This document shows positions 27,471-53,880 of a stretch of DNA of 64,000 nucleotides, piece by piece. The position numbers were made by a program, and so were the translations under genes. The DNA is from Amoebidium appalachense (Eukaryota; Protista; Ichthyosporea): assembly GCA_963693365.1 (NCBI GenBank), contig CAVNZM010000005.1:8068710-8132709 (forward strand), written 5' to 3'. The first letter of the stretch is position 1; each line of letters starts with the position of its first letter. Under the pieces are notes generated by a model. That model had not been told where the DNA came from and did not search any database. It was given only the letters and a program-made list of their open reading frames with translations.

Positions 27471-27501
<31 letters not shown>

Positions 27502-27797: not shown

Positions 27798-29017
27798 TCA
27801 ATATCTTGGGGGGATCTTTATGGGTGATTTTGCGGGCCGCTTATTGGCGACGCGCGACGCCTCGTCGCTGCTGCCGCTCTCACGCTCCTTGTCCCCCGCA
27901 CCGCCAACCACCGACCTGTTGCCGTCCAACAGCTTGAGGTCCACCACCTTCTCGTTGGACTGCTTCGTGGAGGGCTTGTCGTCTCCCTTCTCGTCTTGCA
28001 CATCAGCTGACAGGCTGAGGACTGCCTTCTCCCGGGCCTTGCAGATCTTTTCCCAGGTCTTTGCATACTGGGTTGGGACAGAAGGAGATTGTGTGAGTGT
28101 TTTTGGCTTTTCTGGCTAGCCTGAGCATGTATGTACCTGGGAAAAATGCTATCACAATGTTACCATACCAAACCTAAAGATGACATGATAGGATGATACT
28201 TGCCCACACTTAGGAGATATCCTTAAAACACTACGATGATACGTAACCCATACATACGACTTATCAATATCATCTTTTCGATATCCATACGTTGTCTTTC
28301 GGACCGGAGCTAAAACACAATGATGGGGGGGGGGGGGGGGGGGGGGGGGGTTGAATGCAGAACACGGTACGAAATACGCATACACGATGAGAAGCATGGT
28401 GCAGGACACATGCAAAGGCAAACATTCAAGTATGCAACATCAGCCATGTGCACAGTATGCGTCATAAGCAGAGCCCATCCTCAGGGAGGACCCGGGGGGG
28501 GGGGGGGGGGGGGGGGGGGGGTAGTTGTTTACCTTGCTGATCTCTGATGGCCGAGCACCACCCTCGTAGTCAGGCATGTCAGCTCCATACTTCACAGCTG
28601 ACCACGAAATCTGAGTGGCAGACTTGTGGGCCATTGGATCCCGCAGTCCGCACTCAAATGTGTGGAGCATGAAGCTGAAGAGCTCGGGCAACGCCTTTTG
28701 AAACTCCTGTGTGGGTGTTGGTGTGTGTGTTGCGTGTACGTACACGTAAGCATGTGTGTATGTGGTGATGAGGAAAGGGGGTATTCTCCATTAGCAGCAA
28801 ATAAAACCGAATTCGACAATGAAAAATCTGAAATGACTTGAGGAAGTGGGAAGCTGAATGGATACTGGATAACCATGCATGTACCGTTTCTCTGAGTGAT
28901 AAGAATTTGATGTCTTGTGTGGTTATGTGTTGGTGATTCGTACGTGGGACAACAGGGGGAAGTGGGAGGGAGGGAGTGGGAGGGAGGGAGTGGGAGGGAG
29001 GGAGTGGGAGTGAGTGT

Positions 29018-29048
<31 letters not shown>

Positions 29049-29443
29049 GGGGGGGGGTCACAGTGCATTAAGAATGAACCAATAAGGAAGAACAACAACA
29101 TTAAACATGAATAAGCATGTTAAAAAAAGCAGCATGAGAAGATTTCGTCTTTGATTGGGGTGGGGTGTGTGTGTGGGGGGGGGGGGGGGGGGGGGGGGGG
29201 GGTAATGGGCACAAACGTTTAGTGTCTTGAAGCTGCTGAGGCGGTTCTTGATGTAGGAGCCGTTGATGGGGGACATGCATTGGGGTGGGGGGGGGGATCG
29301 ACGCTGTACATGCGGCCACAGGGATGGTTGTTGCACTCAACTTGAACCTCCACCAACCACCCCTACCACGTCTTCTTGCGGTACCTAACCTGGTCTGCCA
29401 ACTTGTTGGGGTCGGCCGCATTGACAGGGGCAACCTGGAACAT
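27798..29443 (-). pseudogene. Last three exons of unknown cargo gene, copy A (paralog of 38581-44952)
   Basis: Exons 29443-29217 (internal TAG and a frameshift), 28706-28533, 28067-27798. Peptides PCGRMYSVDP, LPELFSFMLHTFECGLRDPMAHK..DYEGGARPS and YAKTWEKI align with copy B, with the same intron positions. Confidence 0.75.
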
Positions 29444-30332: not shown

Positions 30333-30389
<57 letters not shown>

Positions 30390-30421
30390 GCGCGCGCACG
30401 CACACACACTCAGACATGCAC

Positions 30422-30459
<38 letters not shown>

Positions 30460-30948: not shown

Positions 30949-30989
<41 letters not shown>

Positions 30990-31430: not shown

Positions 31431-31465
<35 letters not shown>

Positions 31466-31777: not shown

Positions 31778-31813
<36 letters not shown>

Positions 31814-31973
31814 ACCCACCCACCACCACCTTACCAATATACGTTACGTATTGGTACAATATCACCAATACTAATTAAATGTCGTCACGTGTGATGGTGA
31901 TGGCATCCATGTAGCTCTGCAGCAGTGTGTGTGTGCGGTGCGTGTGTGTGTGGTGTGGAGGCCTGGGGTGGGT

Positions 31974-32006
<33 letters not shown>

Positions 32007-32399
32007 GGATAGACAAATACCAGACATGCATAATTGCACATTCTTTTGCAGCTACAGTTTGATGATATTTACCCACCGTGTGCACCACTTGTGACCCCAG
32101 TCTTCCGAGGTGGTGTCATAGGTGGGCGTCAACACCAATAAATTGACTGGTGACGGGTGTACAACCAAAGAAACTCAGCAGCACATATAATAACGTTGAT
32201 GCTATACCCTGCCTAGTTGACGTAATAATTAGTGCACCATCGCACGCGTGACCCCCCCCCCCCCCCCGGGGGGGGGGGTGTTTTTGCCGCGCCGTACCCC
32301 TGATATTGTAAGTGTACACTGCCCCCACAACCCCAACTGTGTGCTGAATATCTCGTGCTAGGAAACCAATAACGCGAAAGTAACACATGCTGCATGATA

Positions 32400-34030: not shown

Positions 34031-34279
34031 TGCTTATAAGTAACGCATCATGCGGCACAAATTGTCATCATAGCATTATACTACCATCATAGTTGGTCGA
34101 CAATAACGATATATTGGGAACGTGGACACCATATTGTAAACCAAAAAATAATACCACCATAATATACTACACATACCTAACAATGTATTGTGAATGAATA
34201 AAATACTTGCTTACGTGCTGGTAAAATACGAGAAACAAGGATTCTCTCGCTCCTTTTTTTCTTCTTTTTTGTTTGTTTT

Positions 34280-34322
<43 letters not shown>

Positions 34323-34519
34323 ATGTATGTGTGTGTGTATGTGCTCGGTTGAGAGGGAAGGGGGGGGCGGATGCACCGTGTGTGTGCATGTGTGCACGTG
34401 TGTGTGTGTGTGTGCTCTGTGGAACGGAATGGGAGGGGAGGAAATGCACCGTGTGTGTGCATATGTGTGTGTGTCTCTCTGTATGTGTGTGTGTGTGTGT
34501 TGTGTGTTTGTGTGTGTGT

Positions 34520-34584
<65 letters not shown>

Positions 34585-35412
34585 ATCAATGATAAGCCGG
34601 CCATGTGTTTATCATGGCGCACCGGTAAATGAATGTGGCGATTATGTGTAAATATATAAACGGAAATACATTATAAAAAAGGACTCACTCAACGAGATGA
34701 ACGAGCGTTACAAAACGTACGTGTCTGCCCCCCCCTCCCCCCCCCCCCCCCCCCCCCCCGCGCCCCCCACCCAACCCCCCCTGTCTTCCCTCCTTCCCAC
34801 TACGACCCCCCCCCCCCCCCTGCACGTGTCTGGGTGTATAGATCCTACAGGTAACGATGGCAGGGTTAGGGTTATGGTTTTATTTGTGGAAATTATTGAC
34901 ATAAATATTTTTCTGGGTAAACACGTAGGATGGGTGTCCGATATCAACAGGCTTTGTTTCATGTTTTAGCAGTTCGCGTTCGGCTGCCCGCATACGGGCA
35001 CCTATTAGCCGATCAAAACATCAGATTCCACAGATCACTAGACCGAGTCTGATTGGCTCAGGATAAGATTTCACATAACACTAGATCGGTTTTGATTGGC
35101 TCAGTTCGGTAGCCGTAGGTATATAAGCACGACAGTTTTTAGCAGATCAGCAGGCAACAACACATCTTCTGTGTTTAGCACCTACAGCTTTACAGCTATA
35201 TTTTCTTTTCACCCACCCACCTACACCCTACACTCAACCCCCATTGATCCCCACATACGTGCTGTTTTTTTCACGGGGCGAAGACTTCCCCCGTTTTTTG
35301 GGCACAAGGACCTCACGGATCAATAAATTGATGACTGGGGGCCTGCCGTGGTTTACAACCATTGCAGGTTCACTTTCGTCCAAGGGGATGTCCCCCTAGA
35401 GGCAACACACGT

Positions 35413-35756
35413 CCCGGAGTAGTTTTCATAGATCAGTGAAAGAGTGACAATACATAACCAACTGCAGTGTACATATGCGTGGATGCCCCAGTGATCGTGT
35501 TAATGGCCTCTATAATCATCATAGTGGTCATCATTAAAGCCCCATACAACCACCATAAGGATCGCTAGTTATACCCCCATACGATCATCATAGTGATATC
35601 ATTCTATGCCTCATACGATCATCATAATGATCACATACCAATATCCATACGGTCATCATAATGATCACAAGAAGATGATCTAACGGGCGCAACTGACATG
35701 TGAATTTGTTTTTGCACGCCTCATGGAAAGCGGATGAGGCTCATCAGGTGGCCGCG
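35413..35756 (+). repeat. Direct repeat copy 1 (copy 2 at 47505-47813), with internal catacgatcatcata subrepeats
   Basis: Both copies start cccggagtagtttt(t)cataga and end gcggatgaggctcatcaggtggccgcg. Confidence 0.85.
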
Positions 35757-36444
35757 TCTTAGGTATGTACAAATTCAAGTCTACTTTCCCTATGCACATT
35801 AACAATATAATAATAATTTTTTAACACTAATTACCGTGACCTAGGCGAGGGTTGTCAATTAAGAATAGCACAGTGACCAAGCAAAGCAAACTACATGCAA
35901 AAACCATATTTGCAACGCCTCCGTGTGGTGATACCAAATATGGAACAAAAACTCTATAAGTAACCAATCCGATGCGCCTGCTCATATTCCATGCTGCTGT
36001 GATTGGCTTAATCATGAGCCGGGATGACGGAACGGTGGTGGAAGTAGGGTTTGAGGAGGTGAAACAATGGCAATTGTTGGGGACTAAAAATCAGTGGTTT
36101 TATGTGCAAGCCAAATGGGAAACCGTGCTGGCCCCCACGCGAATTTTGAAGCCGTATATAATCAGATCGTGCATGGCCACCTGTATAGGCATTTGGTATC
36201 CGTTTAAGGAATCGTTCGAGTGTGCGCCCATGGGCCGATCCCGGGCCATGACACACACTAATACGATTGCTTAGCTGGCTTCTCCTCAATTTTTTTTATG
36301 TGGGTAGCCTATTAGGTATGCATGTAAAGTAATTAATTTTCTCTCCCTTTATTCACTTTTTACAAAATGATATTGGAACGGTATCTTATTTTGAGCCAAA
36401 AGATCTCATATTACTATCTGCGTGGATCGCGAACAAGTATCCCG

Positions 36445-37730
36445 ATAGGTATCAGAATGATATTGGGATGATATAGTATGGGAAACATCTGGTGTTGCAG
36501 AAGAGGATATTGGAATGATATCGTACAATTATGTCACAACATCTCATAATGATATATTCATGGGACTAAACAAATATCTGAGAAGTAAAACATAGGTATC
36601 GGAATGATATTGTTATGATATAGTATTGGATACATCTGGTTTTGCAGAAAAGGATACTGGAATGATATCGTACAATTATGTCACAACATCTCATAATGAT
36701 ATATTCGAGGGACTAAACAAATATCTGAAAAGCAAAAAATACATATCGGAATGATATTGTTATGCTATAGTATTGGATACATCTGGTTTTGCAGAAAAGG
36801 ATACTGGAATGATATCGTACAATTATGTCACAACATCTCATAATGATATAGTCGTGGGACTAAACTAATATCTGAAAAGTAAAAAATACATATCGGAATG
36901 ATATTGTTATGCTATAGTATTGGATACATCTGGTTTTGCAGAAAAGGATACTGGAATGATATCGTACAATTATTTCACAACATCTCATAATGATATATTC
37001 GAGGGACTAAACAAATATCTGAAAAGCAAACAATACATATCGGAATGATATTGTTATGATATAGTATTGGATACATCTGGTTTTGCAGAAAAGGTTACTG
37101 GAATGATATCGTACAATTATGTCACAACATCTCATAATGATATAGTCGTGGGACTTAACTAATATCTGAAAAGTAAAAAATACATATCGGAATGATATTG
37201 TTATGCTATAGTATTGGATACATCTGGTTTTGCAGAAAAGGATACTGGAATGATATCGTACAATTATGTCACAACATCTCATAATGATATAGTCGTGGGA
37301 CTTAACTAATATCTGAAAAGCAAACAATACATATCGGAATGATATTGTTATGATATAGTATTGGATACATCTGGTTTTGCAGAAAAGGATACTGGAATGA
37401 TATCGTACAATTATGTCACAACATCTCATAATGATATAGTCGTGGGACTTAACTAATATCTGAAAAGTAAACAATACATATCGGAATGATATTGTTATGC
37501 TATAGTATTGGATACATCTGGTTTTGCAGAAAAGGATACTGGAATGATATCGTACAATTATGTCACAACATCTCATAATGATATAGTCGTGGGACTTAAC
37601 TAATATCTGAAAAGTAAAAAATACATATCGGAATGATATTGTTATGTTATAGTATTGGATACATCTGGATTTGCAGAAAAGGATATTGGAATGATATCGT
37701 ACTATTATGTCACAACATCTCAGAATGATA
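36445..37730 (+). repeat. 147-bp tandem satellite, 8-9 units
   Basis: atatcggaatg at 36743, 36890, 37037; the overlapping ORF repeats every 49 aa. Each unit holds three AATGATAT motifs. Confidence 0.95.
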
Positions 37731-38580
37731 ACGTTTTGGATACTGTCCTAATATCGGAAAGGGGTATAAAAATAATCAAGATATCCGAAAGGGCCTATTT
37801 AGATATTGTGGAGGTATATGAGGATAGTATATCTCTGTGATATCCAAAAAAGTTCTTTCATATCCATTTGGTATCCATTTTTCATCCGGAAAAAAACAGA
37901 TATATTCAGTTTTTCAGAAAATTTTATGATAACTATCTAATATCATTTAGATAAATGTTGACTATCTCAAAAGATATGTAATTGGATGCCGGATGCCATA
38001 CGCCCATCTGCAATATCTACATCCCCATCCCGGAGGGGTATCGGGATGGAAAACATTGGATGGGCGCCTAATATTAGAACGATATTAGACTAATATCTGT
38101 TTTGGAATTTCGGTATCTATGATATCATAAATGTTTTTTGGATGGGGGTCGTCCTTTGCTGATGTAGATATCCAGTTTGATATAATTTAGCAGTCCATTA
38201 AATATATATCGCGATGAGTAGTCTAATATATAAATGATGCCCAATTGGATAAGCAATACCCCCCCCCCCCCCCCCCCCCCCCCCCCGTTGTTGGGATCCT
38301 GGCACTTGCTCAACGACGGCAGCACAAGTCTTTATGTACACGTCATGCCCCACAGAAGCATGACCAGTTTTATCTAAGTCATGCTCACCAGGAGCATATG
38401 ACACACAATCCAACACTTACTTTTGATTATGAACTATTACAGGGTCCAGTGACCTTCTTGCTTACAAACTACACATGTTTTTTTGTTACTACTATAAGAC
38501 GTATTAATAAAGAAAAAAAATAACACAAGATCAACTTGAACACACTGGGCACAATCAAAGATAATTGTTTGGGGGGGGGG

Positions 38581-40363
38581 TTAATCTTCCTTGCTTTTTT
38601 TGGTGGCGCGTTCCTCATCCTCCTCCTCATTGCGCACCCTCTTCTTGCTGCCCTCATCCTCGCTGCCCTCGGCCTCGCTGCCCTCGGCCCCATCGCGCTC
38701 GCTGACGTCGCCGTCCCTGTCCCCCTCTTCCTCGCTGACATCAGCGTTCTTCACTTGCTCACGCTCGCTAGTCTCATCCTCGGGCTCGCTGTTGCTGCCA
38801 TCTCCGCTGACCTGGCCACCGCTGCCGTCAGCCTCAACCGCATCCTCATCACGGCCGCCATCGTTGTCAGACCCCGGCTGCAAGGGGGAGACGGGGGGCT
38901 GCAGTTCTTGCTCGCCTGGGCTGTCATCCTTGTTGGCGTTGCCCCCCTTGCGCACGTCTAAGGCCACCTTGGCCTTGGCGCTTGCAGCCCTCTCGGCCAA
39001 CTTCTTGGCCTGGTACTGGTCAGCCTTGAGCCTGATCTTGACCTTCTCCCAGTTCTTGATGTACTGTATATGGGGGGTACTATGTGCAAGCATGAATGAT
39101 AAAAGGTTATAGAAATGGGGCGGAGGAAGGAGGGGGCGGTGGGTGGGGGGGGGGGGGGGGGGGGGTAAATGTTAGTACCCAATATGTTTCAAGTCCAACA
39201 GCTATGTAAGAAGGATCAACTGAACACCCATCTAACAATGTGTATATGGGGTGAAGCAGGCGACAGTTCCCTAAGCAGGATTCTAAAGAGTAAATTTTGA
39301 ATACAAACTGTTTGCTGACACCTAGGACACAAAAAGTAAACCATTCCACTTGGCAAGTACTGTTCAAAAGTTTACAAGAAGATAAGTGCCAATAAAGCAT
39401 AAAACAACCACTAAAATAAAGGATTACACAGCACACACACCTGCTTGATGGTGGACAGCCTGGCGCCCCCGTTGTAGTCACCACCGACATTATAGTTGAC
39501 GTGGGCCCATTGGATGGGGGTAGACGGGCACTTGTGGGCGTTGGGGTCCTTCAGCAACGACTCCAGGCAGAAAACGACCATGCTAAAAAACTTGGGGTAT
39601 TTCTCAGCAATGTCCTGTTGTGTGTGTGATGGCAGCGTTTGTGCCCGTGTGTGTTTGTGTGTGTTGGCAGTGTGTGTGTTGTTGGAAGTAGAGTCCGCTG
39701 TGACTAGGGTCGTCGTGGCGCGCTTGGGCGCTGACCCGTTTCTTTACTGCTTTTCAGTGTGTTAACTCCATGACTGAAACTCCATGTCTGCACCTGGCAG
39801 AGACGTGGCTTATATACCCGTGAGGCAGCAGTCTGGAATGTAATCCGGATGCCAGGCGCTAATCGGATTGGCTACTTTCATTTAGAGATCTCTGGGACCA
39901 GTGAACCAATCGTTTGCAGTCAAAACACAATTGGCAACATTCCTTAACTATGCAGATGTGCATGTGGTGATCGAGTGTCAGCGTGTGTCTGTGTACACGG
40001 AACCAATTGTAAAGCTAACATACACATATTGTGGAGTGAGCGTAAGTCTGCACTCCAACATGTGTGTGTGTGTGTGTGTGTACTAGTAGTATGTGTGTGT
40101 GTGTGCATGTGTGTGGGGAGGGGGGGGGGGGGGGGGGAGTTAGTGTCAAATAGTGTCTCATGATGAGGCAAGTGATCGGGAAGAACAGAGGAGGAGGGGG
40201 GGGGGGGGGGGGGTCAAGTGAAGGGAAGAGGAAAGGAAAATAAGATAGACAGATAAGAGAGAGAGACATGGGCAGCGACAAGAGGGGGGGAGACAGAGAG
40301 AGGCGGGAAAAAAAGTCGCTTAATAGCAGTATACAGTACTAGTAGCAGTGGGGGGGGGGGGGT

Positions 40364-40398: not shown

Positions 40399-41025
40399 CT
40401 GGCATACCATGGGAGTCAGAGAGCTGATGCGGGTCTTGATCCCCGTGAGCGTGATGCTCTCGAACACACGGTTGAACTCACGCCATCCGAATGGATGGGA
40501 GGTGCCTGGGTCAGCTGAATACTTGCGGCCACATGGATACCCCATCACCACAACCTCGTCGATCAGCTCCACCCACTTGGCCTCCCGGTCGTTACGGGAA
40601 GTGGCATACTCCATGATCTGCAAACAATAAAAATCAGGGTGTCGTTGAACCTCCCAAGACGTGTACGAACAAATGCTAAACATATTAAACACGTATCCAT
40701 CGGTTGTCCAACAGATAGGTAAGCATACGTTTGTTATCTCGATAGGGGTGTACACGATATGCAATAGATATGTATTATCCAATGAACATGTATGTGAAAG
40801 GATATCCAACGGATACCCATTAAACGACTACCGCAGACCAACGGTTTAGTACTTTCTGTGCATGTGTAAACCATATTTGCATAATCATTATGGTGTGGAT
40901 GTGGAAGTGATCGTAAATGTTCTCTTTTTTGATTTTTAAATTTTTTGGAGGTGATGGGGTGTGTGTTATGTTTGAGTGTGTCTGGGAGAGGGGGGGGGGG
41001 GGGGGTTATGTGTGTGCGTGTGTGT

Positions 41026-41056: not shown

Positions 41057-44000
41057 GGGGGGGGGGGAATACCGATGAGTTGGTGTCAGGCACTGGGTAG
41101 TGGACGAAGGCATTGCGTATGTTGCCGTGAACCATGGATCTGACTGTGGTCAGCCCCGTGCGGATGGCCGTAACGACCTTCTTGGCGTCTGTACCACGGG
41201 TCGCGCTGGCCAAAATGCTCGTCCAGTGTTCCTTGCCCCTTGAGCTCAGTACATCATGTGCAGTCGGCATCACAGTCTTGATGGCCTCGAGGGTAGCAAG
41301 GGCCAGACTACAATTGTCCAACTCGTTGACAGTGGGGTTGACCAACAGCATCACCTGGTAGACCTGGTGAGACTTGGTGAACTGCTTGACGTTGTCATTC
41401 TGTGGCAAACATGGGAGAGTGGATGGTGTGGGTGTGTGCGTGCGTGTGCGTGCGTGCGTGTTTTTTTTTTTTTTTGGGAGGGTGGGTGTTTTGGAAAGGG
41501 GGGGGGGGGGGGGGGGGGTTAGTTTGAGGTCACACAAACTGGCCATTAAAATACAAACGAAAACAGGAGTAAAACCTAGTCAAGTTCGAAATTTGTGATG
41601 GTTTGATAGTAGGGGTAAACCTGCAAATCGTGAGAACTTTTCCCAGAAACTCGTATATCTTGTGAAGGGATGATTATTTTTAAAAGCGGAAAAAACCTTT
41701 ATAATACAATTTTAAGTCCTCTACTAGGAACTGGTACTTAAAACAACAAAGCGACAGCAGTTTAGTTCAAGCAGTTGATTTGTCGACCATACCTTCAAAT
41801 CAATTAGAGAACCCTGTAGATCATGATAGGCTCTTGACTGTCGGATGATCGATCTATCACATGTCGCCGCAAAACAAAACAAGAGGTCCCGTCGAGTGCC
41901 CACACTATCTATTCTCCCACTTTCTCCTAGCTCTTTTTACGGTCACTAAAACTCCGAGGCTTCGAGGCCAAACATACACAAGGACAAGTAAAATGGCATT
42001 TGCCGACATTATTCTTGTGCCCCGGCTTGACACAAGCGACATGGTTGACATAGAGTACAAGGATGATGCGCAGTTACTGAAAATCAAGCATTATCCTCAC
42101 TTGGAAGTCCTGCTTACCATCTGGGAGGATACAGCACACATATACTACGCAAACGTCACAACTGCGGAATATGAAGCTGTTCTGCGTCAAAAGGAACTCT
42201 TATTTTTAAACAATCAGACGGCAGCCCCATAGTCGCTCGTGGGCATCACATCATCCTCCGTGTCACTCCCACTTCCTTCACCTTCTTCCCCTACATCTTC
42301 CCACATGCTCCTCCCCCTGTATCTCTCCTCCCACTCCTCCTTTGCGCTCTGTTCCCCTCGCCCTCCTGTGCGTACTCGCTTTCGCTAACATCCTGCTCCG
42401 CATCATTGGTGGTGTTGTTCGGTTTCGCTGCGGCGCTTGTGTTCTCCAACCCCTTGTTCCGTGTCTTTAGGTGCCGCTTGCACAGTCGCACCCCTCCGTG
42501 TTCGTGGCTTGGCATGGCTTTGAGGCCACAAAGTTCCCCCCGACTGCTTGTTTGCTTGGCAGGGACCGATAACCAGTGCCACTAAGGCCTTTTGCTTCTT
42601 TCTTCCCTCCGCTGCCTTTGCCCGTTCCTCCTTCTTCTGCTTCTCCTCCGCCACAACACGTTCCTTCTCCCTTCTGCCGTCCAAGTGCTGCTCGCTTGTT
42701 CCGATCATGCACCCCTGTTGCTTTTACGTTTTCGCACTATCGTGGCGTTGCTGTTTGGGTTGCGTTCTGCGAGTGGTGCTCGACCGTGTGGTGGTGTTTG
42801 CTGGGGCGTGCTGGTGGGGTCGGCTGTTTGCGCGGGGGGTTGGGTGGGGAGGGGGCCTGCCTGCTCGGGACGAATGTTGTGCACTGTACCGAACCGCTGT
42901 CTTGCTGTTTTGAGGGCAAAGACTTCTGCCTCCAATTCGGGTGTCGCCGGGTGTGCTCGAGGTATATTGTGCTGGTGCTCCAACCGTCATCAGAGTAGGC
43001 TAGCAACGCGTCTGGGTGGATATACTTAACGGCCGTTTCCATTTCCTCTGACATGAGACTCGAGGGCACTACAATGGTGGGTGGAGGGCGTCACCGGACG
43101 CAACAATAGTAGGAATGATGGATAGGTGCCAGCCTTGCTCCGCAAACCCATAGCCGACTTTGTATGTTTTTCATGTCTGTGACCGTGAGAAGTTTCTGAC
43201 CCGCACGCACGTTGGTTATGCGCAGTTGTTTCTCGTCGTCATTGAACAGATTCTTCTCCACGTTTATCTGCTTTTCTTCCACCAGTTCCTCCACGTTTAT
43301 CTGCTTTTCTTCCACCAGTTCCTCCACCATATCAAACCACGAATTCATCTTCTCCTCCGTGAGAGCGGAAACACGCGCTTTCGAAAGTTCGTTTGGTTTG
43401 CGGAAATTGAGGTTGTAATTATAACCGTGCTGTTTGGCACGGCGTTCGAACAAATTGAACCACCCCTCACCCGGAAGCCCGTCTGCTGTATTGAATTTTT
43501 TGCCGTTACGCTCAGCAATGTCCCGTGCAGAACTTCAGCACGAGAAACCCCCAACCCCCTCCCAGCCAGGAACACCAGCCCACTAGCAAGGCCAATCTCC
43601 TCATCTCAGTGTTAGAATGGGCTTAGGGCCCGGTTTCTTGTTTCCATACTCAGGGTCTTTTTTGTGTCTGTATAGGGTTGCAACGGAAATGCCAGTGGTT
43701 GCAGCTACTTCGGCAACCCGTTGCTTGACTGAGCTTCTCTTCTTTAGCTGTCTAGTTGCCTGTTCCATGAACATGGGATTATACTTGGGCCCGTACTTGT
43801 AACCCTGCTTTATTACACTAGGTGCACTGCGAGTGGGCCCTTTTTTGCGAAGCTTAGGCATATGCTTGTTTTTTTTGGGAGCCTTTGCCATTTTCTGACA
43901 CGCAGTTACAACAGTGCTGTACTATGCTAGTCACGGTGTTGTGGTCAGTAATGAAGGCCAATGCTACCCCGAGCATCACGTGCTCACACCAGCTACCTAC

Positions 44001-44952
44001 CCCTACACAATTACACCCAAACAAAGGCAAAAACTACTCAGAAACACTTATTTAGTTGAAAAGAAAGTGGTTTGTGCCCGTTTATTATGTAGAAAACATG
44101 TCCGAAGGGTTTTGGCCAGCAGCTCATGAGAGCTCACATTTCACGTTCTGGGTATCGGAGAAGCGCCGTTTTTTTTTGCCGTTGCAGGCCTGAGTGCCAG
44201 TAACCGCCCCACCCATTTCCCCGCCCATATTCAAACAAAACCAATGAGAAAAAACGCACAAAAAAAGAAAATAACCAAGTATGGGATCATAAGTTTCTCA
44301 CGATTTACAGGGCTCTCAAGATTTGCAGGTTTGCCCCTACCAGGGAAAAACAAAGAAAAGAAAAAGGAAAAAAAGACAAAAAAAAAGGGGAACAAAATAA
44401 ATGGGTGGCAATTAAGGGCAACTGTAATGCGTTTAGGGAAAAGCGAGAGTCTGCAAAAACCATCGAAAGAATATTTACAAGAGAGAATAACAATTTCTTC
44501 CCGTCATATTAGGGTACCTACCAGCCACTTGACGGTCTTGCCAGGGGTCAACTTCTCAAGCACAGGGATGTCGTCGTCATCATCCTCATCCTCGCTATCC
44601 GACGAAGGGGGGGTACGCTTGCGGCTGCTTTTGGACTTATGCGGGGACTAGGAGTCTCGTGCTCATTCTCCGCATCGCCCGATTCATCACCAGATGATGG
44701 GCCCTCCGGTGGGATGTTTTCAAACTCAACGAATTTCCCTTCCGGCATGGAATGGCCGGCACCGCGCAGCGCAGCCAGCATCTCATCCCTGCCTGCAGCG
44801 TAGGTAGTCCGCAGCTTGTCCTTCATCGTGGTGGTGGGGTAGCGCTTGCAGACAACCGTAAGGTAGTAGGCCAACCTGATGTCGTCATTCGGAAGAAGGT
44901 ACTGCCCGTCGGCATCTTTAGGAAAGTCCTCGTCGGCTCCCCAAGACGACAT
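38581..44952 (-). CDS. Five-exon gene of unknown function with acidic linker and tail, copy B
   Basis: Exons 44952-44522 (1-nt frameshift at the G4 run ~44643-44646), 41399-41073, 40617-40408, 39614-39441, 39063-38581; all phase-0 GT-AG joins. Confidence 0.75.
41993..42232 (+). CDS. 79-aa hypothetical protein inside the pogo-like element, convergent with the transposase
   Basis: aaaATGG start context, uninterrupted complex frame MAFADIILVPRLD..LLFLNNQTAAP. Confidence 0.4.
   Translation: MAFADIILVPRLDTSDMVDIEYKDDAQLLKIKHYPHLEVLLTIWEDTAHIYYANVTTAEYEAVLRQKELLFLNNQTAAP
42291..43891 (-). pseudogene. Degenerate pogo/CENP-B-type transposase
   Basis: HTH-psq-like AEVAATTGISVATLYRH, KPGPKPILT, CENP-B-like GLPGEGWFNLFERR, first catalytic motif LFNDDEK. 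Several frameshifts, a 33-bp duplication (ELVEEKQINVE twice), most of the DDE core missing, charged C-terminal helix retained. Confidence 0.8.
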
Positions 44953-45609
44953 GAGGCGTTTTGGTTTGTCACCGCTTGCAGGAGACTTGGATGTATCTGT
45001 GGATAAAAGTGGGAGTGAGCATGGGTGAAGAAGTAAACTGGAAGGAAGATTGTGTGGGAAACACCACGTGTATACCGTTTACCTTAAACCTAGTTTAGGG
45101 TCATTATATGAGATAGATAGTATGCATTTTGCATATGCAAAGGCATGTGTTGGTTGGTCAATGGATATGGAAAACATATACACAAAACATCCACACTATA
45201 CATATAGGTATTAGTCGGGCATCCAATGGATATAAAGCATCAATCAAAGTATCAATTCTATATGTAATACCTATCCAACAGACATGTGTTTGTTGGCCAA
45301 CGAACGTGTACAAAATATGTGTTGCATATACACACTGATTAGTCGGTTATCCAACAGATACTTAAGCTTATGTTTTTTATCTCGGCAATCTACTAGAACA
45401 TCGGAAACATGCTTCTGTAACACCCAGAAGGTTATTTCGCACATGCACTTGCAAAACCAAGGAAAGAAAACTACGTGCACACAACACAACAACATACAGA
45501 AAACGAGGCAAGAGAAAAACGTCAGTGTGCTGTTTTCACGCATACAGTATGTGGGAAACACACCAAACAAAAACAAAAGGGATAGAGTATTTTTTTTTAA
45601 ACGCGCGCA

Positions 45610-45645
<36 letters not shown>

Positions 45646-45647
45646 AC

Positions 45648-46622
45648 CGATTGCAATGGGGATGTTTAGCCGTCGAATTGTAGCAAATGCTTTCACTACT
45701 CTGTCTATGTCTGGGAGGAAATGTGATCGGCATTCGCAAACATCATACAAGGACAGCTTTTCCAACCAACCAAGTGTGGCAGTGTTCACCGCAAGCGCAA
45801 CGTTCGGCCCGCACTGGAAACCATAGTGCAGGGCTAATGGTGTGGTTTGGACTAGGCAGCCCGGGCGCTGAATGACTATGGTTGGGGCAAGTCCCTTTGA
45901 CACTAGATACAAGGGTGATAGGGGGAGAAAGCACTTGTGCTGGATGGGGTTGGTACAATCTAAATCAGGGAACTCGTTTTTCACAAGTTCCATGATATGA
46001 GGGTATTGCCAAGGAGCATGTACGAACCACACTTTGAGACCATCCAAAAGAATGCTGGAAGATGACAGCGCTCCGTCTTCTATGTGGCCGCAAAAACCGA
46101 CAAGAGAATTTTTCCCGTGGGTGTTTTATCCGATGCGTTAAGCATTGCATACAAGAAAGCTTCGTTGATTCCTGGCATTCTTTTCCCATAGTGTTCCTGT
46201 CCAATTACCGTGTGGTCCGCAATGATTGTTGGGTCGTAGAGGCGTGCGTCCGTTATTTGAGCTATGTCTATTTCAGCATGCTCAACATAAAAACCACCTT
46301 CCCCTACAATGTTTTTCTCGTAGAAAGACATGATTTCCGCTGCATCCATCCGGGACAGCCCAACTACATCTTCCACTGCCCCATCCAACACTTCGTATCC
46401 CTCCTTAACCGGCTTTTTCACTAGTTGCCCCCATGTTTCTGAAACAGCCATAAATGTATGTCTAGTGACGTTTTTCTGTATAGTGCGTGCAGGAACAAAC
46501 TTCATGATGTCACCAAAGGGAATGGGCGACGCAAAGTTCGTTAACAAGACTGCCCCCTCCCCTTTCGCTTCTGCTTCGTGCAAGGCGCTGAGGGCCTGTA
46601 AAGCTTTTTCACATAAACCCAT
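45648..46622 (-). CDS. KDM4/JMJD2-like JmjC histone demethylase; one homopolymer frameshift; last exon not resolved
   Basis: Adding one base to the A5 run at 46092-46096 joins ORFs 46080..46649 and 45271..46047: FYEKNI..GGFY..MPGINEAFLYA..SVFCGHIEDGALSSSSILLDGLKVWF..CTNPIQHK..LSPLYL..G..IVIQRPG..T.PLALHYGFQCGPNVALAVNTATLGW..CECR. This is collinear with KDM4 (YWKNL, GVNTPYLY, FAWHTED, KSWY, RHK, QEAGEF, YHAGFN, CSCR). Donor at 45647. Confidence 0.85.
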
Positions 46623-47254
46623 GGTTGTGTGTGAACATCTTTTTAACAAAGTACGTGATGGTGAGTGCTGTGTGAAAGAATGCTTGCTTAATGAGAAAGG
46701 ACGCAGAAGTGAAACTGACCGGTCGAGGGATATGCGGGGGCTTATATGCGTGCAAGCTCACACAATAAACCCACCCTTTTTGGCGCCAGACACATCAGCA
46801 ATCTTCCCCCCCCATCGGAAACCCCTCTACGACGTCGACGACGGGTTCGGAGTAGTTTACGATACCTGAGTGGCTGCGTTTGGTACCCTCGACATTTTAA
46901 TGGATGGAAAAGCTGAAAACCCATCGTCGACGTCGACAAGCATGTTACAGGGTAATAAAGAGGTCCACTGATTTCTCGACCCTCATGTGTATATGCCAAC
47001 GTCATCCTATGGACATGCTGTGCATGCGTTTATACCGTCCATTAACCAAATGTAGCACCTATTCCAATGCTATAGATGTGCTATGGACGTCGTAAGCCTG
47101 TTCTACGTATGTATACTGTGTAGGCTAACATGATGGGTATCGTCGACGTCGAAAACAAAGCATACTGTGAAGGCGATTCTGAGCATCTTAATATGAGGTT
47201 TCCGACGTCTGTAAACTAATAAGAAACGGCGAATTCTGCAATAATAAATACTGT

Positions 47255-47316
47255 TTTTATAATGTATAAGTACAATAGTTTTATGTGTATATATATATAT
47301 CATATAGTATATATAT

Positions 47317-47352
<36 letters not shown>

Positions 47353-47408
47353 TTGGGGTTTTTATAATGTATAAGTACAATAGTTTTATGTATATATATA
47401 TAGTATAC

Positions 47409-47470
<62 letters not shown>
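47255..47470. repeat. (TA)n microsatellite with a duplicated flank
   Basis: tttttataatgtataagtacaatagttttatg occurs twice, each followed by (TA)n. Confidence 0.9.
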
Positions 47471-47474
<4 letters not shown>

Positions 47475-47504
47475 GGGGTAGGGGTGTCCTGGGAATGAAT
47501 GACC

Positions 47505-47813
47505 CCCGGAGTAGTTTTTCATAGAAGCCCCATACGACCACCATAAGGATCGCTAATTATACCCCCATACGATCATTATAATGATCTCATTATATGCCCC
47601 ATACGACCACCATAAGGATCGCTAGTTATACCCCCATACGATCATCATAATGATCTCATTCTATGCCTCATACGATCATTATAGTGATCACATACCAAAA
47701 TCCATACGGTTATCATAATGATCACAAGGAGATTATCTAACGGGCGCAACTGACATGTGAATTTGTTTTTGCACGCCTCATGGAAAGCGGATGAGGCTCA
47801 TCAGGTGGCCGCG
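47505..47813 (+). repeat. Direct repeat copy 2
   Basis: Same start and end as 35413-35756; contains a 71-bp internal duplication. Confidence 0.85.
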
Positions 47814-48394
47814 GAATGAAAGTGGTGATATCCCCCCATTCCGACCGGTTTTGTTAGACCCCCCACACAGAGAAACTGCCTAATGCAAAGTTTGGTTGTG
47901 CTCCCAACAATCCCCTGCACGTTATTAACCGTTGAATCCCCCCCCGTATTACAGCGCATTTTGCATAATATGGACGTACAACGGTCAATAACTTTTCCCA
48001 CAGAAATGGGGGGACAGTCCGACCGGTTTTGTTACATCACCCACACAGAGACACTGCCTAATGCAAAATTTGGTTGGGCCCCCATCAATCCCCTGCACGT
48101 TATTAACCGTGCAAATGTATCCATCTTGTAGTATCCACCTTTCGGTGGTTCACATGTCTACTAGTAGGTGTAATAAAGATGTCCAAACATAATCCATAAC
48201 ACGCCTTATGTATATCCATGGGCCATCCCCAAGACTGTAACAATACCATCCATATTACTGTCGTAAAACGATATATCGTACGGTACAAACGGTCGTAAGA
48301 CGATACATAATATCGTCGACATGTGGACTACGACATACAAACATGCTCGCCGGATATCGTAGATTTCACCATATTTTGGAGTACTAGTACTCAA

Positions 48395-48890
48395 CTGCAA
48401 AATATTCAATGCAGAGTTCTTGTCGGTCATACGATACGGCATCTTGCAGTAGTATTTGTGTGCACGCTCCCAGCTCTCAGCTGACTCCACCGGGCCAAAG
48501 AGGCGATAGTCGTCAGAATAATGCACACCAGCATGGAATTTCGATGTTTTGAGTTCGTTTTTGGTGGAGTCCTTGAAGCACTCGTACGCAGCTTTGCCGA
48601 ACCTGCGTTTTTTGTTGGTGATATTACTTTACAATATAATGCACTAGAGCGGCACGGAGTCCATTACCAAATGGCGAAAGTTCTGCCATCATTACCTGTA
48701 GGATCTATACACCTAGACACGTGCAGGGAGGGGGGGGGGGGGGGTCGTAGTGGGAAGGAGGGAAGACAGGGGGGCTTTGGGGGGGGGGGGGGGGGGGGGG
48801 GGGGCAGACACGTACGTTCTGTAACGCTCGTTCATCTCGTTGAGTGAGTCCTCGGTGAATTCGTATCCTGTCACCATGCTGTATCACTCG
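48395..48890 (-). pseudogene. Relic of a second Plavaka transposase (one and a half exons)
   Basis: Partial exon E*YSMVTGYEFTEDSLNEMNERYR (~48890-48816), an intron, then exon 48602-48395 FGKAAYECF..SKFHAGVHYSDDYRLFGPVESAESWERAHKYYCKMPYRMTDKN. Intron positions match the 58-64 kb gene; the downstream donor has decayed to TTGAGT. Confidence 0.85.
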
Positions 48891-48959
48891 ATTGTCGACC
48901 AACTACTGTGGTAGTATAATGCTATGATGACAATTTGTGCATGCGTTCCTTATAAGCAT

Positions 48960-51900
48960 CGGGTTTTTTCAATAACTACCCACAGAGTAGCTTCGACCAC
49001 GAGAAATTCACCACAAATTATAAGGGGGGATGGTGAATGTGCCCCTGGAGTACGAGGGTCACACGAAAAAAACACAACGTTGTAGCTCGTATAGAACCCA
49101 ACTTGTAGCATAGTACATGTACATATGTTACCTAGACATTATTGGTTTTTCAATAACTACCCACAGAACAGCCTCTAGCACCAGACATTTACCACAAAGT
49201 TTATGGGGGGGATGGTAAATGTGCCCCTGGAGTACGAGGGTCACACGAAAAAAACACAACCTTGTAGCTCGAATAGAACCCCCCGTGTAGCATAGTATTA
49301 TGTACATTGTGTTAGGGGTTTACACACTTTTTATTGCGTGGACACTGCCGGAGGCCCCGCCACATTCGACGGCCTACTGCGTTTTATTTACCAAAACGTT
49401 TATGCCGGGGATGGTGAATGTGCCCCTGGAGTACGAGGGTCACACGAAAAAAACACAACGTTGTAGCTCGTATAGAACCCCCCTTGTAGCATAGTACATG
49501 TACATATGTTTCTTACACATTTTTGTTTTTTTCAATAACTACCCACAGAACAGCCTCTAGCACGAGAAATTTACCACACAGTTTGTGGGGGGGGATGGTG
49601 AATGTGCCCCTGGAGTACGAGGGTCACACGAAAAAAACACAACGTTGTAGCTCGTATAGAACCCCCCTTGTAGCATAGTACATGTACATATGTTACCTAG
49701 ACATTATTGGTCTTTCAATAACTACCCACAGAACAGCCTCTAGCACGAGAGATTTATCACAACGTTTATGGGGGGGATGGTGAATGTGCCTCTGGAGTAC
49801 GAGGGTCACACGAAAAAAACACAACATTGTAGCTCGAATAGAACCCCCTTGTAGCATAGTATATGTACATGTGTTACCTAGACATTATTGGTTTTTTCAA
49901 TAACTACCCACAGAACAGCCTCTAGCACGAGAAATTTACCACACAGTTTGTGGGGGGGGATGGTGAATGTGCCCCTGGAGTACGAGGGTCACACGAAAAA
50001 AACACAACGTTGTAGCTCGTATAGAACCCCCCTTGTAGCATAGTACATGTACATATGTTACCTAGACATTATTGGTCTTTCAATAACTACCCACAGAACA
50101 GCCTCTAGCACGAGAGATTTATCACAACGTTTATGGGGGGGATGGTGAATGTGCCTCTGGAGTACGAGGGTCACACGAAAAAAACACAACATTGTAGCTC
50201 GAATAGAACCCCCCTTGTAGCATAGTATATGTACATGTGTTACCTAGACATTATTGGTTTTTTCAATAACTACCCACAGAACAGCTTCTAGCACGAGACC
50301 TTTACCACAACGTTTATGGGGGGGATGGTGAATGTGCCCCTGGAGTACGAGGGTCACACGAAAAAAACACAACGTTGTAGCTCGTATAGAACCCCCCTTG
50401 TAGCATAGTATATGTACATATGTTACCTAGACATTATTGGTTTTTCAATAACTACCCACAGAACAGCCTCTAGCACGAGAGATTTACCACAACGTTTATG
50501 GGGGGGATGGTGAATGTGCCCCTGGAGTACGAGGGTCACACGGAAAAAACACAACATTGTAGCTCGAATAGAACCCCCCTTGTAGCATAGTATAAGTACA
50601 TGTGTTACCTAGACATTATTCGTTTTTTCAATAACTACCCACAGAACAGCTTCTAGCACGAGAGCTTTACCACAAAGTTTATGGGGGGGAAGGTAAATGT
50701 GCCCCTGGAGTACGAGGGTCACACGAAAAAAACATAACCTTGTAGCTCGAATAGAACCCCCCTTGTAGCATAGTATATGTACATAGTATGTTACCTAGAC
50801 AATATTGGTTTTTTTGCAATAACTACCCACAGAACAGCTTCTAGCACGAGAGCTTTACCACAAAGTTTATGGGGGGGATGGAGAATGTGCCCCTGGAGTA
50901 CGAGGGTCACACGAAAAAAACACAATGTTGTAGCTCGAATAGACCCCCCTTGTAGCATAGTATATGTCCATGTGTTACCTAGACATTATTGGTTTTTTTA
51001 ATAACTACCCACAGAACAGCTTCTAGCACGAGACATTTACCACAAAGTTTATGGGGGGGATGGTGAATGTGCCCCTGGAGTACAAGGGTCACACGAAAAA
51101 AACACAACGTTGTAGCTCGTATAGAACCCCCCTTGTAGCATAGTATATGTACATGTGTTACCTAGACATTATTGGTTTTTTCAATAACTACCCACAGAAC
51201 AGCTTCTAGCACGAGAGCTTTACCACAACGTTTATGGGGGGGATGGTGAATGTGCCCCTGGAGTACGAGGGTCACACGAAAAAAACACAACGTTGTAGCT
51301 CGTATAGAACCCCCTTGTAGCATAGTATATGTACATAGTATGTTACCTAGACATTATTGGTTTTTTCAATAACTACCCACAGAACAGCTTCTAGCACGAG
51401 AAATTTACCACAAAGTTTATGGGGGGGATGGTGAATGTGCCTCTGGAGTAGAGTACGAGGGTCACACGAAAAAAACACAATGTTGTAGCTCGAATAGACC
51501 CCCCTTGTAGCATAGTATATGTCCATGTGTTACCTAGACATTATTGGTTTTTTCAATAACTACCCACAGAACAGCTTCTAGCACGAGACATTTACCACAA
51601 AGTTTATGGGGGGGATGGTGAATGTGCCCCTGGAGTACGAGGGTCACACGAAAAAAACACAATGTTGTAGCTCGAATAGACCCCCCTTGTAGCATAGTAT
51701 ATGTCCATGTGTTACCTAGACATTATTGGTTTTTTCAATAACTACCCACAGAACAGCTTCTAGCACGAGACATTTACCACAAAGTTTATGGGGGGGATGG
51801 TGAATGTGCCCCTGGAGTACGAGGGTCACACAAAAAAAACACAACATTGTAGCTCGAATAGAACCCCCCTTGTAGCATAGCATATGTACATGTGTTACCT

Positions 51901-52850
51901 AGACATTATTCGTTTTTTCAATAACTACCCACAGAACAGCTTCTAGCACGAGAACTTTACCACAAAGTTTATGGGGGGGATGGTGAATGTGCCCCTGGAG
52001 TACGAGGGTCACACGAAAAAAACACAATGTTGTAGCTCGAATAGACCCCCCTTGTAGCATAGTATATGTCCATGTGTTACCTAGACATTATTGGTTTTTT
52101 CAATAACTACCCACAGAACAGCTTCTAGCATGAGACATTTACCACAAAGTTTATGGGGGGGATGGTGAATGTGCCCCTGGAGTACGAGGGTAACACAAAA
52201 AAAAACACAACATTGTAGCTCGAATAGAACCCCCCTTGTAGCATAGCATATGTACATGTGTTACCTAGACATTATTCGTTTTTTCAATAACTACCCACAG
52301 AACAGCTTCTAGCACGAGAACTTTACCACAAAGTTTATGGGGGGGATGGTGAATGTGCCCCTGGAGTACGAGGGTCACACGAAAAAAACACAATGTTGTA
52401 GCTCGAATAGACCCCCCTTGTAGCATAGTATATGTCCATGTGTTACCTAGACATTATTGGTTTTTTCAATAACTACCCACAGAACAGCTTCTAGCACGAG
52501 ACATTTACCACAAAGTTTATGGGGGGGATGGGGAATGTGCCCCTGGAGTACGAGGGTCACACAAAAAAAACACAACATTGTAGCTCGAATAGAACCCCCC
52601 TTGTAGCATAGCATATGTACATGTGTTACCTAGACATTATTCGTTTTTTCAATAACTACCCACAGAACAGCTTCTAGCACGAGAACTTTACCACAAAGTT
52701 TATGGGGGGGATGGTGAATGTGCCCCTGGAGTACGAGGGTCACACGAAAAAAACACAACGTTGTAGCTCGTATAGAACCCCCTTTGTAGCATAGTATATG
52801 TACATAGTATGTTAACTAGACATTATTGGTTTTTTCAGTAACTACCCACA
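48960..52850 (-). repeat. ~183-bp tandem satellite, about 21 units, inverted relative to 32400-34030
   Basis: Unit gtgcccctggagtacgagggtcacacgaaaaaaacacaac; period 182-184 bp. Confidence 0.95.
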
Positions 52851-53460
52851 TGCGGCATGTGTTACTTTCACGTTATTGGTTTCCTAGCACGGGATATTCA
52901 GCACACAGTTGGGGATGTGGGGGCAGTGTACACCTCAATATTGGTAAGGTGGTGGGTGGGTTGGGGGGGGGGGGGGGGGGGGTTCCACACAACCGAAACT
53001 GTCGGTGTTACAAGTGGTTCGGTCTTAGGAAGTTAGAACGGTGATTTTTTAATTAATAGCGGGAAACAATATTATCCCCATTGCATATGGGGGGAACGAG
53101 GAGGGGGGGGGGGGGGGGGGGGGGGGGGGTTTCACAACGAATTCTATCGACTGTGCATAATTAATGTATATTGCACATGTAGCCTGAAAGATTAAAGTGA
53201 ATGTGTGTATGTATATGTGCGAGTATATTTGTGTATGCAATACATGTACAATGTTTTCGTCTTTGTAGGTGGGTGGGTGGGGTGGGTGGGTGGGGGGGGG
53301 GGGGGGGGGGGGGGGTGCGGGGGGGGGGGAAGAGGGAGGGGGGAGGGGGCATCATGATCAGGGATAACAGGGTGTGTGCGTGTGTGCGCTTGTGTGTGCA
53401 TGTGCTGTGTGTGTTGTGTAGGTGTGCGCCTGTGTGTGTGCGTGCCTGTGTGTGCGCGCC

Positions 53461-53492
<32 letters not shown>

Positions 53493-53526
53493 GTGCATGT
53501 GTGAGTGTGTGTGCGTGCGCGCGCGC

Positions 53527-53557
<31 letters not shown>

Positions 53558-53754
53558 TGTGTGTGATTTCAAAGAAGTCGAAAGCGCCAGTGACACCCAT
53601 GTTGAAAAAAAGACAAGCAAGCACGCTAAGAAGGACAGCAAGAAGTAACAGAAACCCTTTCATGCCGAAAAAAATGGTCAAGAACAAAGAAGTGGAGGAC
53701 ACGTAACTATAGTCTGATAGTTGTGACTAAGGGCACTAAGGGTAGCGCTAAGGG

Positions 53755-53880
53755 CACCAAGCTGATGCACGCGCGCGCGCGAGCCGAAATCTATTTTTAT
53801 CTTTTTCCTAATCAGGCGCGGCGAATAGTGATTGGCTAAATCCCAATCCGGTTTGCAATTTTTTCTCCATTTAAGCCTGT
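53755..53880 (+). promoter_or_regulatory. Outward-facing promoter-like block in the right arm
   Basis: Inverted copy of 30040-30180, followed by cgcaggtc short repeats and donor AAG|GTTAGT at ~54090. Confidence 0.4.

What the first reader, a model, noticed from the sequence alone, without database searches (positions are those of the whole stretch)
45648..46622. KDM4-like histone demethylase as cargo of a giant DNA-transposon complex: candidate anti-silencing system
Seen: a compact JmjC gene, intronless across the catalytic domain unlike its neighbours. It keeps the Fe-binding H-x-E (HIED) and distal H (ALHYG), the 2-OG Lys (LKVW) and the KDM4-type Zn ligands (C..H..CxC). The single lesion is a 1-nt indel in an A5 run, and similar homopolymer indels occur at ~17010 and ~44645, so it may be a sequencing error. 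Known: KDM4 enzymes remove H3K9me3/H3K36me3, and H3K9me3 silences transposons. Inference: the element carries an eraser of host heterochromatin, acquired as a retrocopy or from a virus.
Basis: partly seen in the sequence, partly recalled or inferred. Interest (0 to 1): 0.88.

Follow-up and report, generated by a model that had tools for sequence, protein, structure and literature searches.

The report
KDM4-like demethylase gene among Plavaka transposons
This is a real, divergent gene for a predicted histone-demethylating enzyme, broken in this copy by transposon insertions; it likely exists in several near-identical copies and may be an accessory gene of giant Plavaka transposons that would help them escape silencing, though it lies outside the two complete elements seen here and a similar gene family is already published from viral insertions.

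Summary
The JmjC domain is real and KDM4-type (Pfam E 5.6e-9; Fe ligands, Lys and C-H-C-C zinc site kept; KDM4 side of a tree, SH-aLRT 97). The missing base is in a GG run at 46085-46087, not the A5 run; 4 of 4 runs laid carry it. The gene is likely multi-exon (about 1,000 aa), not a retrocopy. It has other lesions: a 9,557-bp PlavakaB element splits exon 1 and is absent at that site in 5 of 6 runs laid. The inverted satellite arrays belong to two separate PlavakaB elements, and JmjC lies outside both; no enclosing ends were found. Cargo status stays plausible: a TIR-bounded element carries decayed paralogs of the gene's likely 3' exons (43% identity), and contig depths hint at 5-9 near-identical copies. 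KDM4-like JmjC-only genes proposed as anti-silencing factors are already published for Amoebidium viral insertions, and PlavakaB elements with TET dioxygenase cargo for fungi. A KDM4-like gene inside Plavaka was not found in my searches. Verdict: new variant of a known kind; cargo about 50%, activity untested.

The parts
45648..46714 (-). JmjC exon (KDM4-type catalytic core). 3' donor at 45648|45647; the 5' acceptor at 46714 is the phase-compatible candidate and is uncertain
46085..46087 (.). Frame break in the window: one base fewer than in the runs laid, in a GG run at the first Fe-binding His codon
   Evidence: tables 4 and 7
56352..56619 (-). First exon, main part (Lys-rich leader MGNTKRK...), cut off from the rest by element E2
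   Evidence: (contigs of X2 and X3 join 46792 to 56352; X10 covers this exon only)
46775..46792 (-). Last 18 nt of exon 1, with donor GTGGGT at 46774
   Evidence: an X10 contig ends exactly at 46775
44522..44996 (-). Likely exon 3, with a second frame break at about 44645 in a G run
   Evidence: phase-compatible acceptor and donor; join to JmjC inferred, no RNA joint seen
41073..41399 (-). Likely exon 4 (109 aa, no known family)
   Evidence: no relatives
40408..40617 (-). Likely exon 5; paralog inside E1
39441..39614 (-). Likely exon 6; 43% identical to an exon inside E1
38581..39063 (-). Likely last exon (acidic tail, stop codon)
46793..56349 (.). E2: 9,557-bp non-autonomous PlavakaB element, TIR CATCAGCAATCTT, CA duplication; holds a transposase fragment (48209-48628) and about 21 copies of a 183-bp satellite (48962-52850); inserted in exon 1
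   Evidence: terminal signature from PMC12730594
26547..38164 (.). E1: 11,618-bp non-autonomous PlavakaB element, TIR CATCAGCAAAGG, TA duplication; holds 183-bp (32409-34026) and 147-bp (36450-37730) satellites
27801..29443 (-). Decayed paralogs of exons 5, 6 and 7 carried inside E1 (about 29215-29443, 28533-28706, 27801-28067), same order, no JmjC
41609..44340 (-). Decayed pogo/Tigger-like element (24-nt TIR, HTH remnant) inside a predicted intron of the gene
   Evidence: family name recalled from motifs
58144..63762 (-). Intron-rich Plavaka-type transposase gene, running off the window's right end; ends 1.5 kb from the JmjC gene's start
   Evidence: atlas hits 0.93 with PF18759 but low recognition score; no Pfam hit
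57825..57826 (.). Breakpoint: X2 and X3 continue the JmjC upstream region with other sequence; X11 bridges the window's junction with 0 differences
   Evidence: tables 7 and 8

Best explanation
This is a divergent KDM4-type JmjC gene whose window copy is disrupted by a PlavakaB insertion, and it is likely a multi-copy accessory gene of a related family of giant Plavaka DNA transposons, predicted to remove repressive histone H3 lysine methylation from the element. SHOWN: JmjC domain with KDM4-type residues; open frame and an empty insertion site in other runs; two TIR-bounded PlavakaB elements flanking and interrupting it; paralogs of exons 5-7 inside E1. INFERRED: the seven exons splice into one protein of about 1,000 aa, made of a Lys-rich leader, JmjC and an unannotated C-terminal region (about 70%); the gene has several near-identical copies (about 70%); it moved as cargo of a Plavaka element whose ends are lost here (about 50%); the enzyme is an active Fe(II)/2-oxoglutarate H3K9me3 or H3K36me3 demethylase (about 65%); the C-terminal region replaces the missing PHD/Tudor readers and aims it at the element, giving anti-silencing (about 30%). 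The window copy is likely non-functional because E2 splits exon 1.
For: KDM4-type residues and placement on the KDM4 side of a 51-row tree, SH-aLRT 97. Exon 6 against the E1 exon: 23 of 53 identical, E 1e-11. Exon 5 and 7 paralogs scored above 300 of 300 and 293 of 300 shuffles and lie in the same order and strand inside CATCA..TGATG ends. All five downstream intron phases are compatible. JmjC-region contigs are 7.7-9.5 times (X2) and 5.5-8.6 times (X3) deeper than a diverged Plavaka contig present at the same ratio in both runs; a second X3 contig also works out at about 39. The neighbouring transposase exon has a similar ratio (5.1 and 10.6; 8.1). E1 sits in a GATAT-rich stretch like its own subterminal arms, just downstream of the last exon. 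X10 covers exon 1 only, with an adapter end and a break at the predicted donor: a weak hint of transcription in a related sample. Precedent: PlavakaB elements carry TET/JBP dioxygenases in fungi, and red-algal Plavaka carry SET and putative 2OG-oxygenase genes.
Against: No CATCA..TGATG pair or target duplication encloses the gene. The gene is the target of E2, not its cargo. Two of 2 deep DNA runs break at 57825, so the link to the neighbouring transposase is not general. In E2 the transposase fragment's 3' end points to the near TIR about 1.4 kb away, which leaves no room for this gene behind a transposase of that layout. E1's paralog has no JmjC. No RNA joint links JmjC to exon 3. Contig depth is not a calibrated copy number (tool's warning). 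GATAT-rich patches also occur in introns. No JmjN was detected and the Asn198 position is Ser. A published JmjC-only KDM4-like family is tied to giant-virus insertions, not to Plavaka.
Confidence: 0.42

Rival explanations
1. The gene is a member of the published JmjC-only KDM4-like family of endogenized giant viruses (or a remnant of such an insertion), later hit by and mixed with Plavaka elements. It would work as proposed there: a viral eraser of host heterochromatin.
For: PMC11244446 describes divergent KDM4 paralogs with JmjC as the only domain and multi-exon structure, in 52 (39%) viral insertions, some transcribed and a couple outside insertions. The same paper describes secondary TE insertions and Plavaka repeats in that genome. 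This gene fits that description by Pfam. Repeated viral insertions could explain multi-copy depth.
Against: No giant-virus marker or intron-poor gene cluster in the window: 130 translated stretches scanned against Pfam gave only JmjC and TE families above cut-off. No relative in viral contigs (close relatives only). The 3' exons have a paralog inside a PlavakaB element. The host organism is not established and the published sequences were not compared.
Confidence: 0.3
2. It is a lineage-specific host KDM4 paralog that lost its reader domains and was multiplied by segmental or tandem duplication in TE-rich chromatin. E1 merely captured a fragment of a related host gene, and the enzyme serves host chromatin regulation.
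For: Host-style introns; no enclosing element ends; insertions of E2 and a pogo-like element into it; other KDM4-like paralog contigs at about 85% DNA identity in 3 of 4 runs; the published paper also allows host paralogs outside viral regions.
Against: No conserved host gene anywhere in 64 kb. Near-identical copies at a depth ratio like the transposase's. The E1 paralog keeps exon order and points toward a TIR, as an accessory gene would.
Confidence: 0.2
3. The JmjC exon is a single-copy gene (or dead pseudogene) unrelated to exons 3-7, and the depth ratios reflect ploidy or library bias.
For: Depth is uncalibrated; two variants at 748 and 532 in X2 near 56800 could be alleles; the phase match of JmjC to exon 3 has about a 1 in 3 chance.
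Against: The same roughly 1:8 ratio to low contigs appears in two samples. The frame is open and catalytic residues are kept in other runs. A typical donor plus poly-C follows the JmjC exon. It is not the canonical KDM4: no JmjN, PHD or Tudor, and a long branch.
Confidence: 0.08

Closest known systems
JmjC-only KDM4-like genes of Amoebidium appalachense giant endogenous viral elements (PMC11244446)
   Same: Divergent KDM4-type JmjC with no PHD/Tudor; multi-exon; expanded family in mobile, silenced DNA; the anti-silencing role was already proposed there.
   Different: Here there are no viral genes nearby, the context is PlavakaB elements, and the likely C-terminal region has a paralog inside a PlavakaB element. 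Sequence identity to the published genes was not tested.
KDM4/JMJD2 histone demethylases (human KDM4A-E, yeast Rph1)
   Same: H-x-E...H iron triad, 2-OG Tyr/Phe/Lys positions, C-H-C-C zinc site, Lys after the zinc His; same side of the tree.
   Different: No detectable JmjN, PHD or Tudor; Asn198 position is Ser; under 45% identity to any of 1.84 billion representatives; substrate untested.
TET/JBP-bearing PlavakaB transposons of Agaricales fungi (PMC12730594)
   Same: CATCA..TGATG ends, 2-bp target duplication, and a 2-oxoglutarate dioxygenase proposed to counter silencing.
   Different: Those carry a DNA-modifying TET/JBP inside fully defined elements; this is a histone-demethylase type, and no enclosing ends are found for it.
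Giant Plavaka elements of the red alga Bostrychia with PAG1-3 accessory genes (10.1101/2025.02.11.637652)
   Same: Giant Plavaka with accessory chromatin-type genes and internal tandem repeats.
   Different: Their cargo is SET/DNA methylase and a putative 2OG oxygenase with a ParB-like domain; the passages read name no JmjC.

Membership tests
JmjC Fe(II)/2-OG oxygenase | JmjC domain above Pfam cut-off | tested here: met
   PF02373 36.9 bits against 24
JmjC Fe(II)/2-OG oxygenase | H-x-E/D...H iron ligands and 2-OG Lys | tested here: met
   KDM4A residue numbers are recalled
KDM4/JMJD2 | C-H-C-C zinc site and following Lys | tested here: met
   All kept; the cysteine set is absent in 9 of 9 zf-C5HC2-bearing KDM5/plant-type hits checked
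KDM4/JMJD2 | Groups with KDM4 rather than KDM5 | tested here: met
   SH-aLRT 97 in a quick IQ-TREE search of 51 rows, with long branches; the careful search did not finish
KDM4/JMJD2 | JmjN domain | tested here: not met
   No Pfam hit; profile comparison aligned only the JmjC part. A diverged JmjN is not excluded; the model of relative P0009 was unreliable there
KDM4/JMJD2 (canonical) | PHD/Tudor reader domains | tested here: not met
   No Pfam hit in exons 3-7
KDM4/JMJD2 | Demethylates H3K9me3/H3K36me3 | not testable with these tools
   Needs an enzyme assay
PlavakaB transposon (elements E1, E2) | CATCA..TGATG termini and 2-3 bp target duplication | tested here: met
   E2's empty site seen
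Plavaka cargo gene | JmjC gene lies between one element's TIRs | tested here: not met
   It lies outside E1 and E2, and no other TIR pair was found in the window; ends could be lost or lie beyond the window
Plavaka cargo gene | Gene family occurs inside a TIR-bounded element | tested here: met
   Met for exons 5-7 only, not for JmjC
Plavaka cargo gene | Several copies with shared ends | tested here: inconclusive
   Depth ratios 5.5-9.5, uncalibrated; ends not seen; no genome held
Amoebidium GEVE KDM4-like family | Lies among giant-virus genes | tested here: not met
   No viral marker in the window
Amoebidium GEVE KDM4-like family | Falls in the published clade | not testable with these tools

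The most novel reading that the evidence does not exclude
A PlavakaB giant DNA transposon family carries its own KDM4-type histone demethylase fused to a transposon-specific targeting region, and uses it to strip H3K9me3 from its own copies: a histone-level counterpart of fungal TET-bearing Plavaka elements, and possibly the shuttle between host KDM4 and the viral KDM4-like family.
Probability: 0.25. Interest if true: 0.82.

Novelty: new variant of a known kind. Interest (0 to 1): 0.52.

Why it matters
Transposon-encoded anti-silencing factors are rare. Known or proposed ones act on DNA methylation (TET/JBP; VANC as cited). A histone lysine demethylase carried by a cut-and-paste transposon would extend this arms race to histone marks and give a testable enzyme. 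It would also bear on the open question in PMC11244446 of whether JmjC-only KDM4-like genes arose in the host or the virus. If the rivals hold, this is one more decayed copy of a published family.

Tried and rejected
1. One giant element with the inverted satellites as arms: rejected; each array lies inside its own TIR pair. 2. An intron as the cause of the frame break: rejected; the only GT..AG in the overlap would remove the His (sequence), and runs show one extra base. 3. Retrocopy: rejected by the exon structure. 4. Whole-genome copy count: no genome held. 5. Word-index protein searches: 0 of 87 candidates; 1 of 7,994, the query's own first row; 0 of 329 for exon 4 (weak evidence). 6. Viral contigs: 0 of 3 and 0 of 4 candidate stretches. 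Metagenomes: 2 of 94, one a ciliate-code KDM4 gene (L001) and one a chance match in a bacterial contig (L002). 7. Atlas search for exon 4: best 0.84, uninformative. 8. Fold of relative P0009: mean pLDDT 41, only the JmjC core resolved, so no fold search was run. 9. No RNA holder listed among 24 runs. Parts without cover in X8, X10 and X11 are not used as evidence of absence. 10. Earlier findings of the scan: nothing in 4 look-ups. 11. Host organism: not established.

Full report
1. THE DOMAIN. The minus strand holds two overlapping frames, 46080-46757 and 45271-46125. The second hits Pfam JmjC at E 5.6e-9 and KDM4, KDM5 and JMJ14 chains in the PDB. I aligned a read-through with X at the break to 143 of the 150 best hits from 1.84 billion representatives; two tandem-repeat hits and five short ones were dropped. 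It keeps the positions of KDM4A Tyr177, Phe185, Glu190, Asp191, Lys206, His276, Asn290 and the zinc set Cys234, His240, Cys306, Cys308 with Lys241 (numbering recalled). His188 is the codon at the break and reads His in the window's second frame and in the runs. The Asn198 position is Ser, as in 21 of 143 hits. A quick IQ-TREE search on 51 rows (50 of those 143 plus the window; the careful search did not finish) puts it on the KDM4 side at SH-aLRT 97, next to the unnamed P0009 (85), among long branches. JmjN, PHD and Tudor were not detected. The best true relatives are 41-44% identical. So it is KDM4-like and divergent, and it is not the canonical KDM4.

2. THE FRAME BREAK. Of 24 runs listed I laid four on 45650-47250. 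Three show one extra base behind 46085, in a GG run and not the A5 run; the fourth has a loose end that fits. The frame is therefore open in those runs. They also differ from the window at six other sites in the exon. Five of these are shared by all four runs: four change a residue, one is silent, and none hits a catalytic position. The runs thus show another haplotype or a majority copy, and cannot say whether the window's break is an error or a real lesion. The breaks at 46085 and 44645 both look like one-base losses in G runs, which fits long-read error (inference).

3. THE GENE IS TARGET OF AN ELEMENT AND LIKELY MULTI-EXON. All four runs leave the window at 46792 and continue with the sequence at 56352. 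X2, X3 and X10 show the same join from the other side, so 5 of 6 runs laid show the empty site; X11 has no cover there. The skipped 9,557 bp (E2) has 13-nt exact TIRs and a CA duplication, and depth jumps at its first base. With E2 removed, a 95-codon Lys-rich first exon ends at a donor at 46775|46774. X10 covers only that exon and a piece of the transposase's last exon, carries an adapter end at 56628, and has a contig ending exactly at 46775. Its kind is not on record, so this is a weak hint of a spliced transcript. After the JmjC exon a donor followed by poly-C leads to five further exons down to 38581, all in compatible phase, about 1,000 aa in all. A decayed pogo-like element sits in one intron. 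The join of JmjC to exon 3 is inferred, not seen.

4. THE PLAVAKA CONTEXT. A second element, E1 (26547-38164), has 12-nt TIRs and a TA duplication. Ends of CATCA..TGATG with 2-3 bp duplications define PlavakaB (PMC12730594, passages). Each element holds one 183-bp satellite array, so the inverted arrays are not the arms of one element around JmjC. A Plavaka-type transposase gene runs from beyond 64000 to 58144; atlas hits carry PF18759 at 0.93 with a low recognition score, and Pfam itself gave no hit. It ends 1.5 kb from the JmjC gene's start. However, X2 and X3 both break at 57825 and go on with other sequence, while X11 bridges the window's junction with no differences and also holds another continuation. 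The adjacency is therefore a deletion or a juxtaposition peculiar to this copy. No TIR pair encloses the JmjC gene.

5. WHAT KEEPS THE CARGO IDEA ALIVE. E1 carries decayed paralogs of exons 5, 6 and 7 in the same order and strand. Exon 6 matches at 23 of 53 residues, E 1e-11; exons 5 and 7 beat 300 and 293 of 300 shuffles. This copy has no JmjC. So the family of the likely C-terminal region is PlavakaB cargo in at least one element. JmjC-region contigs are 7.7-9.5 times (X2) and 5.5-8.6 times (X3) deeper than a diverged Plavaka contig found at the same ratio in both runs, and a second low contig in X3 works out at the same depth of about 39. The tool warns that depth is no copy number; I read it as a hint of several near-identical copies. 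The transposase's last exon has a similar ratio. E1 itself lies in a GATAT-rich stretch like its own subterminal arms, just past the last exon, but such patches also occur in introns.

6. LITERATURE. PMC11244446 (abstract, passages, sections 6, 7, 8, 10, term search of 2 supplements; figures not visible) reports divergent JmjC-only, multi-exon KDM4 paralogs in 52 giant-virus insertions of Amoebidium and a couple outside them. It proposes that they counter host silencing, and it describes Plavaka repeats separately. Its figures 2E, S4C and S6C could bear on whether JmjC occurs in Plavaka repeats and were not seen. PMC12730594 (passages) shows TET/JBP inside fungal PlavakaB, with no mention of JmjC. 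The Bostrychia preprint (passages; supplements closed) describes Plavaka accessory genes. PMC11013392 (one passage) reports JmjC genes in wasp filamentous viruses. PMC12344493 had no hit for the terms. Searches for Plavaka plus JmjC, KDM4 plus transposon plus giant virus (17), Amoebidium plus KDM4 (52), transposon plus JmjC plus anti-silencing (53), Plavaka plus transposon (54), giant virus plus JmjC (82), Amoebidium plus H3K9me3 (83) and TE cargo plus JmjC (94) found no report of a KDM4-like gene inside a DNA transposon; these were read as listings, and the library lacks most subscription papers. The host is not established. The window fits the description of Amoebidium, and a retroelement primer site resembles an animal-type initiator tRNA (recalled), but no sequence comparison was possible.

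7. VERDICT. The gene is real and KDM4-like. The window's copy is likely dead. I favour a Plavaka accessory gene with a predicted anti-silencing role (0.42) over a giant-virus remnant (0.30), an expanded host paralog (0.20) and an unrelated single-copy exon (0.08). The anti-silencing concept is published for close analogues, so this is a new variant of a known kind. Interest 0.52; 0.82 if cargo status and activity are shown.

Noticed in passing
window 9000-18018 (+): Intron-rich transposase-like gene ending in DUF7869 (E 9.8e-32), with two overlapping frames near 17010 that suggest a frame break; 25-26-bp subterminal-like repeats at 16166-16293.
   Followed up: partly
window 18589-23339 (-): Copia retrotransposon with an open 1,379-aa polyprotein and 127-bp identical direct repeats at both ends: a recent insertion next to a gag-like ORF (23302-25050).
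   Followed up: partly
window 25040-25060 (-): Primer-binding-like site TGGTAGCAGAG upstream of the gag ORF; resembles the complement of animal-type initiator tRNA (recalled, untested).
   Followed up: no
window 350-5200 (-): Unannotated multi-exon gene with no Pfam hit; an exon near 1320-1480 has a GGQH motif like ParB/Srx-type domains of transposon accessory proteins (recalled, untested).
   Followed up: no
window 45775-45849: Contigs of one or two other JmjC paralogs at about 85% DNA identity in X1, X2 and X3, so the family has further members.
   Followed up: no
window 46376: In X3 one low-depth contig (about 39) leaves the JmjC exon here into other sequence: a truncated or interrupted copy.
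   Followed up: partly
window 29677-30181 and 53751-54363: Block shared in inverted form by E1 and E2, with CCAAT boxes, possibly the promoter and first exon of the cargo gene.
   Followed up: partly
window 35515-35756 and 47519-47813: A roughly 240-bp repeat with 34-bp subunits present in both E1 and E2 in direct orientation, unlike the shared inverted block.
   Followed up: no
window 57600-58804: X11 covers the transposase's last exon and downstream region with no differences from the window and an adapter end at 57600; possibly transcription of this transposase copy, run kind not on record.
   Followed up: partly
window 6385-7251 (-): Intronless 288-codon ORF with no Pfam hit.
   Followed up: no
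L001:1742-2659: KDM4-type gene read with the ciliate code in a metagenome contig; not related to the finding.
   Followed up: partly
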